Source: Negaprion brevirostris (Eukaryota). From it: 64,000 nucleotides of DNA. This document shows positions 18,001-21,000 of the stretch, piece after piece. The DNA lies in contig JARDVH010000154.1 of NCBI GenBank assembly GCA_030324005.1, positions 20,556,397 through 20,620,396 of the forward strand, given 5' to 3'. Made by a program: the position numbers. Numbering within the stretch: the first letter of the stretch is position 1; each line of letters begins with the position of its first letter.

Positions 18001-21000
18001 AATTTTAAATACAAACAGATTGCTCTGGGTAAGCTTTAATTTTTAATAGTTTTCAATTTCAGCCCCTTCAGGTTTACAAAAGGGACACTGTCTCTTTAAT
18101 GCCATTCAGGAAGCAGTTTGCTAAAACACAAGAATGAGTTCATGCCCATGAAATGGTTGAACAGTAGGTGGCTGCTACTCGCATTTAAGTGACTCTGGAC
18201 TAACAAATAACACATGCCCATATGGTGTAAACTTTAGCCCAATAGCATTTATCATCAGTTACACTGGCACCATGGCATATACAAAGCACATGCAATTCTA
18301 GGAATTGTGTGCCTAATGTAAATTGTCAGACATACTGAAAACCAATCAGTTACAAAGCAGGTTCTTTTATATTTGTAGCTTTCGACATAAGAGTTAATTC
18401 AACTTGTGCAAATTAAAGAACAAAACAATACTCTAAATGCATTATGCAGAAAACTATGGAGCCAAACAGTCCAGCAAGATCTCCAGTTCAATATTTGTTC
18501 TTTACCAAATTAATTGTGGTTCTGATGAAGAAACTAAAATTTGCCTGAATGTCTTCAATGGCAGCATGGTGGCACAGTGGTTAGCACTGCTGCCTCACAG
18601 CACCAGGGACCCGAGTTTGATTCCTGGCTTGGGTCACTGCCTGTGTGGGGTTTGCACATTCTCTCCATGTCTGCGCAGGTTTTCTCTGTGTGTTTCTGTT
18701 TCCTCCCACAGTCCGAAAGACATGGTGGTTAAGTGCATTGGCCATGCTAAATTCACATTCTGGCGCCGGAGTNNNNNNNNNNNNNNNNNNNNNNNNNNNN
18801 NNNNNNNNNNNNNNNNNNNNNNNNNNNNNNNNNNNNNNNNNNNNNNNNNNNNNNNNNNNNNNNNNNNNNNNNGTACTAAGGAGGTCTCAACATTACCTGG
18901 CTTTGATTGGAGTTCCTTGGGTTTTACTAGCCTCTCTCTCTGGCCTCAGGGATGCACATGACTTCTGAATTATGCTGCACTCCTAACAAAGCCGCAATGT
19001 AGACATTACTTCTCAGTAACAATATTAAAATGTAAATACGTCTGTAATGTTGTTTTGCCTTTGGAAGAGCTTCTAACTTAGTTTGACAATGATGTGGGCT
19101 TGAGGGAACTGAAGTCTTGTCTAATGGATTGATGTTGGCTCAGTTTGGTGCGGCTACGTGCAAGTCAGGGTTGGCTCACTTTGTTTGTAACACAGACACT
19201 TTTCCCCCTCAAACACTTGGAGCTGTGCAGTCTGTGCAGTCTAGCGCTAACTACTAGCCGGGAATGTGCCTGAAGTCGAAATGCTGGCTCATCATTCGCA
19301 TGCTGGCTCGCAGGACACAAAATAGAACAACAGAGAGGAAAAGACACCAACAGTGCGCCACTGACAAGTGGGATTGCCAGTTACTGAAGAAAGAATGTGT
19401 TCCTCTCTTAACTGGCACCACTCTTCTTTCTCAAGAGTCACATCTTTCTTAACCAAAAAAAAATGCATGGTTAGTGGGACATCAACATGCAGCTGCACTC
19501 TAGGAAGGGGGTCACAAACAGAGACAGGAGTTGGGAAGACACTTTTAAAGTAACACCACCAATGTGCTCTCTCTCATTTCCGTATGCTTCAGGGCTAGAC
19601 TGCATCTTCTGCTTCCATCTGCGGTTTTGTGGCTTCTTTGTTCTCATCACCGCTTGAGCCCCAGAAGTCAAGGTTACGCCTGAGAGAAGTGAGGACCTGT
19701 ACCTGTAAGTTGGACACTGGCGCTGGGCTGGCGGCTAAGGCGGCCGTTGCCATGGTGCGGTTCAGAAGAGGGTTGGGGGGATTGCAGCTGGCCGGGTGGG
19801 TGGCTTTCCAATAGGCTTCAAGGTACTCGGCTAGATGCTCGCAAGCGTCTTCCAACTGATTCTCATCTAGAATGATATCAAACAGTTCCTGCGAAGGAAG
19901 AAAAGGTTAGCACAAACTTGAAAGTCTTTTTCAGCCCCTTTTCTCCCTAGCCTCTCATTGTTTCTGTATTTGTTGAAATCAGTGTGACAACATTTCCCAA
20001 GGCCTTGATAATCATCGGCTAGATGTATAAGGGTGGCAGGTATGTGGCAGCAACATTCACACATTATCCCAACATGGATGTATATCAGCCATTCCTTCAC
20101 TGCTGTTGTGTCAATATCCTGGAACTCCTTCCTGAACAGTACCATGTGCGTCTGTCCCACACAGAGTATGGCAGTTCAAGATGGTGGCTTACTACCACCT
20201 TCCCAATGGTAATTAGGGATGCCACCTATAGAGATGGCAGTAACTGATGCCAGCTTGTCATTAACACCCGAGCTATATATGAGCCTTACAGCACCAGGGA
20301 CCCAGGTTCAATTCCTGCCTCGAGTCACTGTCTGTGTGGAGTCTGCATTTTCTGCCTGTGTTTCCTCTGGGTGCTCTGGTTTCCTTCCACTGTCTGAAAG
20401 ATGTGCTGGTTCGGTGTGTTGGCCCTGCTAAATTCCTCCTCAGTGTACCCAAACAGGTGCCGGAGTGTGGTGACTGGGGGATTTTCACAATAACTTCATT
20501 GCAGTGTTAATGTAAGCTTACTTATGGTACTAATAAATAAATGGAGCCAAGGAAAAGCAAGTGCAAGGGAATTCTGTTAGCTCTTCAGCTCCCAATTGCT
20601 GCCCAGCAACCTGTGCTTCAAAGGTATACATGTAGCAGTCTAGTAAGGACGGGATCCACCTCCATTGTAACAGCCTCCGTGGTCACATGAAGAAATGTTA
20701 CCGGGCAAGATTTTAGCCACTATCAGAACACATGGAACTAAACCACAACAAATTACCACCTTCAGAGAGACAGGAAATAAAAGTATATTCTATTGTTTAT
20801 TTTCATGCTATAGGATTTCACTGTTGACTAACAGATATGAGCAGCTCAGATAGCAATCATGAAGCTGTTTCAACTGAGGAAATGAGTGCATATGCTATTA
20901 TAATCATCCTCTCTCTTTAGGAAGCACAGGAGTACATGATACCAAACACAGCGGAAATTTGTCCTGCTCATCTGGCCTGTAGGTTCCTATCACCCAAGAA

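What the first reader, a model, noticed from the sequence alone, without database searches (positions are those of the whole stretch)
19595..19888. Intact CACNB1 exon inside an HDAC5 intron, same strand
Seen: an uninterrupted 97-codon exon plus stop, with its own polypyrimidine/AG acceptor, lies between the HDAC5 exons at 22249 and 17799. Known: the peptide is the end of the CaV beta-1 GK domain plus C-terminus, and CACNB1 and HDAC5 are separate multi-exon genes, both on human chr17q. The retained acceptor shows it is a genomic fragment, not a processed retrocopy. No other CACNB1 exon is visible. Inference: either a recent ectopic duplication of part of CACNB1 into HDAC5 or a misplaced contig; the lack of decay fits both.
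Basis: partly seen in the sequence, partly recalled or inferred. Interest (0 to 1): 0.8.

Follow-up and report, generated by a model that had tools for sequence, protein, structure and literature searches.

The report
Stray CACNB1 exon inside shark HDAC5
A perfectly intact last exon of the calcium-channel gene CACNB1 sits, on the same strand, inside an intron of an otherwise complete HDAC5 gene of a shark; it is either a young copied gene fragment or an assembly error, and it cannot add anything useful to the HDAC5 protein.

Summary
On the minus strand, 19888-19595 is a 97-codon exon plus TAG behind a pyrimidine tract and AG. It is 96/97 identical to Mustelus asterias CACNB1 X3. It matches rabbit beta-1a, including the beta-1a-only tail (E=1.3e-44).

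No other CACNB1 exon is in the window. The exon lies in the 4.4-kb phase-2 intron between HDAC5 exons 22346-22249 and 17799-17681. HDAC5 residues 683-1117 are all present and collinear. Read in HDAC5's frame the exon gives NCLISF-stop, so no fusion protein is possible.

The exon shares an N-free stretch (18873-29592) with four HDAC5 exons, so a simply misplaced contig is excluded. An artefact would need a chimeric contig, perhaps joined at the SINE at 20283-20541. A 100-N gap lies 720 bp downstream of the exon.

In M. asterias both genes lie on the same 111.7-Mb sequence. That fits an intrachromosomal duplication better than a random chimera.

My estimate:
- about 0.5: a real, young, unprocessed gene-fragment duplication;
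- about 0.4: a chimeric contig.

The native CACNB1 locus and the reads could not be examined, so the question stays open. Interest is modest.

The parts
19595..19888 (-). CACNB1 terminal GK-domain exon in its beta-1a-type read-through form: 97 codons (19888-19598) plus TAG (19597-19595)
   Evidence: sequence; 6jp5_B E=1.3e-44, identical through [11 protein letters not shown]; 96/97 to M. asterias XP_078080267; tblastn.
19889..19910 (-). Splice acceptor of that exon: branch-like ctaac, pyrimidine tract ccttttcttccttcgc, AG at 19890-19889
   Evidence: read directly. Homology to CACNB1 proteins ends at 19888. The in-frame upstream residues PFLPSQ do not match ..KLAQCPP of P0001.
19697..19702 (-). 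Internal alternative donor CAG|gtacag. Beta-1b-type proteins diverge here, after ..PVSNLQ
   Evidence: sequence; the 598-aa beta-1 chain 7vfs_D aligns only to query residue about 62-69 and then diverges. P0241 continues GAYLVHEE.. after SNLQ. Acceptor to this donor is 186 nt (19888-19703).
22249..22346 (-). HDAC5 exon A ([32 protein letters not shown] + AG of a split Arg codon), donor AG|gtgaga
   Evidence: no internal mismatch to shark HDAC5; the only mismatch is at the HSP edge in the intron.
17681..17799 (-). HDAC5 exon B (G + [39 protein letters not shown] + T), acceptor ttttag
   Evidence: Pfam Hist_deacetyl E=8.2e-7, 29.1 bits against a cutoff of 27.9; (100% to HDAC5 of Cetorhinus, Pristiophorus and Carcharodon).
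17800..22248 (-). HDAC5 intron (4449 nt, phase 2) that holds the CACNB1 exon
   Evidence: In 18 of 20 HDAC5 proteins inspected, EYLTAF is followed directly by RT[V/I]VMPIA.
18773..18872 (.). 100-N gap between the CACNB1 exon (720 bp away) and HDAC5 exon B; not filled
   Evidence: (N runs).
18557..18772 (+). SINE-like repeat copy, head at 18557, cut off by the N gap
   Evidence: 74-82% to the other copies.
20283..20541 (+). SINE-like repeat copy between the CACNB1 exon and HDAC5 exon A. It is the only recognised repeat where a chimeric join could hide
   Evidence: 69-84% to the other copies; 75% to the copy at 18592-18754.
10760..51793 (-). HDAC5 gene body in the window, residues 683-1117 of P0127 in 13 collinear exons: 51793-51659, 47816-47688, 47306-47244, 30070-29957, 24906-24847, 24323-24237, 23882-23760, exon A, exon B, 14949-14815, 14411-14322, 13281-13111, 10852-10760
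   Evidence: tblastn HSP limits; exact splice sites were read only for exons A and B.

Best explanation
The exon is a real, evolutionarily young, unprocessed gene fragment. A piece of genomic DNA of at least about 1.4 kb and at most about 4.4 kb carries the last GK-domain exon of CACNB1 with part of its flanking introns. It was copied from the native CACNB1 locus, elsewhere on the same chromosome, into the intron between two catalytic-domain exons of HDAC5, in sense orientation.

It does nothing for the HDAC5 protein. HDAC5 splices across it.

If the strong CACNB1 acceptor is used at all, there are two outcomes. Either a 186-nt cassette is included (acceptor 19888 to the internal donor after 19703), or the transcript ends there. 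Both read RNCLISF-stop after HDAC5 residue about 940. The result is a poison exon or truncation, which lowers HDAC5 output rather than making a chimera.

Shown here: the exon's identity, intactness, position, strand and frame, and the collinear, intact HDAC5.

Inferred, not shown: that a second, native copy exists in this genome; that the linkage is physical; and the mechanism of copying (DNA-level duplication or templated insertion).
For: (1) The exon and four HDAC5 exons (30070-29957, 24906-24847, 24323-24237, 23882-23760, plus exon A) lie on one N-free stretch, 18873-29592. Scaffold-level misplacement is therefore excluded on the upstream side.

(2) HDAC5 residues 683-1117 are complete, collinear and nearly identical to shark orthologues. 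The local assembly is otherwise sound.

(3) In the closest named relative, M. asterias, CACNB1 (XP_078080267) and HDAC5 (XP_078080036-49) lie on the same 111,698,809-bp sequence. By my reasoning a random chimera would pair two same-chromosome genes only a few percent of the time. DNA-level duplications are often intrachromosomal (recalled general knowledge).

(4) The only recognised repeat between the exon and HDAC5 exon A is an old SINE copy, 69-84% like the other copies in the window. That is poor substrate for an assembler to cross by mistake.

(5) The acceptor is retained and homology stops at the AG. The copy was therefore made from DNA or unspliced RNA.

(6) One residue differs from M. 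asterias (P for Q in the variable tail). This is compatible with a slightly diverged copy.
Against: (1) The native CACNB1 locus of this genome, read depth and spanning reads could not be examined. A second copy is therefore not shown.

(2) The assembly is fragmentary: 12 N runs in 64 kb. The contig ends 720 bp after the exon, and SINE copies sit on both sides of the 1.4-kb piece 18873-20282. A repeat-mediated chimera or a one-sided wrong extension would leave this layout.

(3) The exon shows no decay at all: 96/97 to the orthologue, with 12 CpGs kept (CpG o/e 0.57 against 0.2-0.3 in the flanks). This is what the native exon would look like. A real copy would have to be very young.

(4) The single difference from M. 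asterias is no more than expected between orthologues. HDAC5 also differs at 1 internal residue of about 435.

(5) A strong sense-oriented acceptor inside a conserved gene should be selected against (inference).

(6) No shark HDAC5 protein among those fetched uses the exon. 0 of 255 stored proteins contain NCLISF or both motifs.

(7) GC is 0.45 in 18873-20282 against 0.38-0.39 in the rest of the intron. That marks the piece as foreign, but it fits either reading.
Confidence: 0.5

Rival explanations
1. Assembly chimera. The exon is the one native CACNB1 exon of this genome. A contig that starts in the HDAC5 intron was extended through a repeat (most likely the SINE at 20283-20541) into the CACNB1 locus. 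It then broke off 720 bp past the exon, and the scaffolder joined the next true HDAC5 contig across 100 N.
For: - The draft is fragmentary: 12 N runs in 64 kb, with stretches between them of about 0.9-13 kb.
- The CACNB1 piece (18873-20282) is bounded by a SINE on one side. On the other side are a gap and then a SINE truncated by that gap.
- It sits at a contig end.
- The exon is undecayed and keeps its CpGs.
- GC of the piece differs from the rest of the intron.
- No exon 14, no AATAAA/ATTAAA signal and no further CACNB1 sequence follow before the gap.
- No annotated protein in the databases carries this exact exon from this genome. No row with '-' as source appeared among the 120 listed in each.
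Against: - A contig-level chimera is needed, not a misplaced contig. There is no N between the exon and four HDAC5 exons.
- The SINE copies seen are only 69-84% alike, so a k-mer walk across them is not easy.
- A random chimera would have to join two genes that happen to share a chromosome in M. asterias.
Confidence: 0.4
2. A 5'-truncated retrocopy of an unspliced or intron-retaining CACNB1 pre-mRNA 3' end (LINE-mediated), which would also keep the acceptor.
For: Only the last exon with some upstream intron is present. It is a terminal exon in beta-1a-type transcripts.
Against: The 720 bp after the stop hold no A-run of 7 or more and no AATAAA or ATTAAA, only AGTAAA at +666. No flanking direct repeat of 13 nt or more was found apart from the SINE pair. 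A tail could hide in the 100-N gap, so this is not excluded.
Confidence: 0.05
3. The exon is in functional use where it lies. Either it is kept by selection as an alternative terminal or poison exon of HDAC5, or it is the true last exon of a CACNB1 gene that overlaps HDAC5.
For: Intact acceptor, intact internal donor and an undecayed sequence in sense orientation.
Against: - In HDAC5's frame it reads NCLISF-stop.
- 18 of 20 inspected HDAC5 proteins join exon A directly to exon B. The other 2 lack the search motif: P0136 differs there and P0253 is a shorter isoform.
- No CACNB1 exon lies in the 44 kb upstream.
- In M. asterias the accession numbers of the two genes are about 220 apart. If numbering follows map order (a recalled convention, not tested), that means many genes lie between them.
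Confidence: 0.03

Closest known systems
CACNB1 (CaV beta-1) last GK-domain exon, beta-1a-type read-through form (M. asterias XP_078080267; rabbit beta-1a in PDB 6jp5/6jpa)
   Same: 96/97 residues identical to M. asterias. Only a handful of the first 80 residues differ from rabbit, and the tail [11 protein letters not shown] is identical. The start (E after ..CPP) and stop positions are the same as in the M. asterias and Pristiophorus proteins. The internal donor lies at the point where beta-1b-type proteins diverge.
   Different: It stands alone. No SH3, HOOK or other GK exons and no beta-1b-type exon are in the 64 kb, and it lies inside another gene.
Unprocessed (duplicated) gene fragments or pseudogene fragments in introns, arising by segmental duplication or templated insertion (general knowledge, recalled)
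   Same: A genomic piece with a splice site retained, a single exon, placed in an intron of an unrelated gene on the same chromosome as its parent.
   Different: Such fragments usually show decay, and this one shows none. Existence of the parent copy in this genome is not shown.
Poison exons or gene-trap-like cassettes (an acceptor plus an in-frame stop inside an intron; general knowledge, recalled)
   Same: A sense-oriented strong acceptor, and a stop 7 codons after the junction in the host's frame. The 186-nt cassette has a usable donor.
   Different: There is no evidence of use, no visible canonical poly(A) signal and no conservation data.
Repeat-mediated chimeric contigs in short-read draft assemblies (general knowledge, recalled)
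   Same: The foreign unique piece is bounded by SINE copies and a gap at a contig end.
   Different: The SINE copies are old and diverged (69-84%). The two loci share a chromosome in a close relative, which a random chimera does not predict.

Membership tests
CaV beta-1 (CACNB1) coding exon | Significant similarity to the end of the GK domain and the beta-1 C-terminus, better to beta-1 than to beta-2, -3 or -4 | tested here: met
   beta-1 E=1.3e-44, beta-2 2.5e-25, beta-3 and beta-4 about 1e-13; all named top hits are beta-1, apart from one row labelled beta-4 (Eudyptes filholi) and a few 'hypothetical protein' rows.
CaV beta-1 (CACNB1) coding exon | Pfam Guanylate_kin domain at gathering score | tested here: not met
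   19.5 bits against a cutoff of 25.2. Only the last 24 of 182 profile positions lie in this exon, so a single-exon fragment cannot reach the cutoff.
Complete CACNB1 gene at this locus | The other exons (N-terminus, SH3, HOOK, GK, beta-1b-type C-terminal exon) nearby in order | tested here: not met
   5 CACNB1 proteins gave 1 significant HSP each (19888-19598/19658/19667). All other HSPs had E>=1.0.
Processed retrocopy | Exons joined without introns; homology continues upstream of the exon boundary | tested here: not met
   Homology stops at the AG at 19889. The upstream frame reads PFLPSQ, not ..KLAQCPP.
Processed retrocopy | Poly(A) tail and target-site duplication | tested here: inconclusive
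   None in the 720 bp before the gap. The 100-N gap hides what follows.
HDAC5 coding exon | In frame with the flanking HDAC5 exons and present in orthologous proteins | tested here: not met
   NCLISF-stop in HDAC5's frame; 18 of 20 HDAC5 proteins join EYLTAF directly to RT[V/I]VMPIA, and 0 of 255 stored proteins contain a chimera motif.
Class IIa histone deacetylase HDAC5 (host gene) | Hist_deacetyl domain exons with best matches to HDAC5 orthologues, collinear | tested here: met
   (PF00850, 29.1 bits against a cutoff of 27.9, on exon B). (100% to shark HDAC5). (13 collinear HSPs, residues 683-1117; 1 internal difference from M. asterias).
Duplicated gene fragment (real second copy) | A parent copy elsewhere in the same genome, with read depth or spanning reads supporting two loci | not testable with these tools
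   Only the 64-kb window is available. No collection of eukaryotic genome DNA or reads is on hand.
Chimeric contig | Discordant read pairs, a depth break at the junction, or absence of the exon from the native locus | not testable with these tools
   No reads and no other contigs of this assembly. Only the layout (SINEs, gap, contig end) could be read.

The most novel reading that the evidence does not exclude
The copy is real, fixed and kept intact by selection. On this reading a captured CACNB1 terminal exon serves as a regulated poison or terminal exon of HDAC5 in this shark lineage. Its use would cut HDAC5 off after residue about 940, giving a protein that keeps the N-terminal regulatory part but lacks the last third of the deacetylase domain and the C-terminal region. 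Alternatively it would send the transcript to decay. Either way, HDAC5 dosage would be tied to a splice acceptor that normally works in excitable tissue.
Probability: 0.04. Interest if true: 0.6.

Novelty: new member of a known kind. Interest (0 to 1): 0.27.

Why it matters
If real, this is a clean, datable example of DNA-level exon relocation between two linked genes in a slowly evolving vertebrate. An intact acceptor has been dropped in sense orientation into a conserved regulator. That is raw material for exon shuffling or poison-exon evolution, and a marker for the lineage that carries it.

If it is an artefact, the practical value is a flag on this assembly. A chimeric contig here would mislead gene prediction for both HDAC5 and CACNB1, because the native CACNB1 model would lose its last GK exon.

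Either way the biological surprise is limited. The exon cannot make an HDAC5-CaV-beta fusion.

Tried and rejected
(1) In-frame HDAC5-CACNB1 fusion: rejected. The intron is phase 2 and the exon phase 0, so it reads NCLISF-stop.

(2) Other CACNB1 exons or a beta-1b-type exon 14 in the window: none.

(3) Processed retrocopy: rejected at the acceptor. A retrocopy of unspliced RNA is not excluded because of the gap.

(4) The two SINE copies as halves of one interrupted element: rejected. They cover the same part of the element and are 75% alike.

(5) Flanking direct repeats as target-site duplications: nothing of 13 nt or more besides the SINE pair.

(6) Rfam families in 17000-23000: 0 matches at gathering score.

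(7) Orphan short CACNB1-like proteins of sharks, or a protein annotated from this window: none seen. One search gave 299 proteins at E<=1e-10 among 361 candidates, 120 listed. The best identity was 92%, on partial coverage. No row had '-' as source and no named shark appeared. Most rows are unnamed and were not fetched or used.

(8) Chimera-like annotated proteins: 0 of 255 stored proteins.

(9) GC content as a boundary marker: 0.45 against 0.38-0.39. The 300-nt profile is too noisy to place a breakpoint.

(10) Literature:
- 'CACNB1' + 'HDAC5' + 'shark' returned 0 papers.
- Two searches for the CACNB1 exon structure listed 1 and 10 papers (11 held all five terms).
- I read passages of two of them, PMC9018955 and bioRxiv 10.1101/2025.06.02.657545. 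Neither describes the 3' exons.
- Exon numbers are therefore not cited, and the beta-1a/beta-1b distinction rests on the PDB alignments.
- Supplementary files were not consulted.

(11) Pfam on four repeat-like ORFs elsewhere in the window: no family.
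Full report
**What is there**

On the minus strand, 19888-19598 is an uninterrupted run of 97 codons followed by TAG at 19597-19595. Directly upstream lie a branch-like ctaac, a 16-nt pyrimidine tract and AG (19910-19889).

The peptide begins [32 protein letters not shown].... The PDB search gave 22 distinct chains at E<=0.01, all CaV beta subunits:
- beta-1 scores best (rabbit beta-1a in 6jp5_B, E=1.3e-44);
- then beta-2 (2.5e-25);
- then beta-3 and beta-4 (about 1e-13).

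The match to rabbit beta-1a runs through [11 protein letters not shown]. The 598-aa beta-1 chain 7vfs_D diverges after ..PVSNLQ. The window has CAG|gtacag at exactly that point (donor at 19702). So this is the last GK-domain exon in its read-through, beta-1a-type form, with the alternative internal donor still in place.

Pfam on the exon alone gives only a sub-threshold Guanylate_kin hit on the last 24 profile positions.

In the large protein set, 3270 proteins reached E<=1e-10 among 3924 candidates, and 120 were listed:
- the best hit is CACNB1 isoform X3 of Mustelus asterias (96/97 identical);
- next is Pristiophorus japonicus (95%);

The window is therefore shark DNA, not human, and I treated it so.

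**Nothing else of CACNB1 is present**

tblastn of five named CACNB1 proteins gave one significant HSP each. The proteins were from M. asterias, P. japonicus, two from Callorhinchus, and one beta-1b-type cluster member. Every HSP started at 19888, and all other HSPs had E>=1.0.

Homology ends at the acceptor AG. The upstream in-frame residues (PFLPSQ) do not match ..KLAQCPP. This is genomic, not spliced, sequence.

**The host gene**

tblastn of Carcharodon HDAC5 (P0127) maps residues 683-1117 in 13 collinear minus-strand exons from 51793 to 10760. Against M. asterias HDAC5, every mismatch but one lies at an HSP edge in intron sequence. The single internal difference is A for V in VDT[A/V]QSSS.

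The CACNB1 exon lies in the 4449-nt intron between two exons:
- exon A (22346-22249, ..EYLTAF + AG);
- exon B (17799-17681, G + [10 protein letters not shown]..; Pfam Hist_deacetyl above cutoff).

I searched exon by exon.

**Frame**

The HDAC5 intron is phase 2 and the CACNB1 exon is phase 0. Read in HDAC5's frame the exon gives NCLISF-stop.

The stretch from the acceptor to the internal donor is 186 nt. Inclusion as a cassette would keep the downstream frame but bring a stop seven codons in. Use as a terminal exon would end HDAC5 after about residue 940.

No AATAAA or ATTAAA lies in the 720 bp before the gap. A fusion protein is excluded.

Of the 20 HDAC5 proteins inspected, 18 join EYLTAF directly to RT[V/I]VMPIA. 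The other two lack the search motif: P0136 differs there and P0253 is a shorter isoform. None of the 255 stored proteins carries a chimera motif.

**Real or artefact?**

The window has 12 N runs. None lies between the exon and exon A. The exon shares the N-free stretch 18873-29592 with four more HDAC5 exons. A simply misplaced contig is therefore ruled out on that side, and an artefact would need a chimeric contig.

Downstream, a 100-N gap (18773-18872) lies 720 bp after the stop, so the link to exon B is only a scaffold join.

The 1.4-kb piece 18873-20282 is bracketed by a SINE-like copy at 20283-20541 and, beyond the gap, a copy at 18557-18772 that the gap cuts off. Both have the same orientation, cover the same part of the element, and are 75% alike. 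A repeat-mediated chimera or a one-sided wrong extension would leave this layout. However, the copies are old (69-84% to the other eight loci in the window), which makes an erroneous walk less easy.

GC is 0.45 in the piece against 0.38-0.39 in the rest of the intron. The exon keeps 12 CpGs, with o/e 0.57 against 0.2-0.3 around it. Both facts fit either reading.

**One outside fact bears on the choice**

In M. asterias, CACNB1 X3 (XP_078080267) and four listed HDAC5 isoforms (XP_078080036-49) sit on the same 111,698,809-bp sequence (15 of 76 cluster members were listed). The accession numbers are about 220 apart. If numbering follows map order (a recalled convention, not tested), many genes lie between the two.

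Same-chromosome origin is common for DNA-level duplications. By my own rough estimate from chromosome size, a random chimera would produce it only a few percent of the time.

Against that, a real copy must be very young to show no decay. A sense-oriented strong acceptor in a conserved gene should also be disfavoured. The single residue that differs from M. asterias (P for Q in the variable tail) is no more than orthologues would show.

**Verdict**

My estimates are:
- about 0.5: a real, young, unprocessed intrachromosomal gene-fragment duplication that acts at most as a poison exon;
- about 0.4: a chimeric contig;
- about 0.05: a retrocopy of unspliced RNA, whose tail could hide in the gap;
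- about 0.03: some functional use in place.

**What stayed unchecked**

- The native CACNB1 locus of this genome, read depth and spanning reads.
- The orthologous intron in other sharks.
- A search for short orphan CACNB1-like proteins found none from a named shark and none from this window. Most rows there are unnamed and were left alone.
- A literature search for CACNB1 + HDAC5 + shark found 0 papers. Passages read in two papers did not cover the 3' exons, so I give no exon numbers. Supplementary files were not consulted.

**Novelty and interest**

If real, this is a new member of a known kind, an unprocessed gene fragment in an intron. It is notable only for its perfect state and sense orientation. 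If it is an artefact, it is a flag on the assembly. Interest is modest.

Noticed in passing
window 718-922, 2529-2713, 5074-5361, 18557-18772, 20283-20541, 34435-34518, 34861-35072, 45001-45182, 48517-48713, 60188-60323: A SINE-like repeat family with a tRNA-type B-box-like motif (GGTTCAATTCC; the motif name is recalled). It has ten loci in 64 kb, 69-84% alike, and its translations give the recurrent '..ETGAPGGNP..QTPHR'-type junk ORFs.
   Followed up: partly
window 27026-27984 (arrays called at 27145-27636): Imperfect GT/GA-rich tandem arrays (periods 19-29). They produce three overlapping 270-315-aa minus-strand ORFs of SLSHTHTH-like low complexity and a local GC skew of 0.37. They lie inside the 5-kb HDAC5 intron 29957-24906.
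   Followed up: partly
window 51794-64000: No HDAC5 exon for residues below 683 was found in the 12 kb upstream (E<=1). Either the next intron exceeds 12 kb or the exon falls in one of the N runs (56295-56298, 59212-59311, 63082-63181).
   Followed up: no
window 30071-47243: A 17-kb HDAC5 intron, by far the longest in the window. It holds six N runs, so this is the least well assembled part of the gene.
   Followed up: no
P0121 (database protein, not in the window): A 226-aa 'histone deacetylase 5 [Tachysurus ichikawai]' on a 1758-bp contig carries the [17 protein letters not shown] block twice in tandem (printed). This explains its outlying 145 bits. It looks like an assembly or annotation artefact of that record.
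   Followed up: partly
window 19595-19703 (minus strand): The beta-1a-type tail [11 protein letters not shown] is identical between this shark and rabbit. The read-through isoform and its tail therefore appear conserved from sharks to mammals.
   Followed up: partly
window 19990-20282: The stretch just upstream of the exon looks to me, from recall only, like a decayed copy of a widespread shark interspersed repeat. No second copy was found in the window at E<=1e-5, so this is unconfirmed.
   Followed up: no
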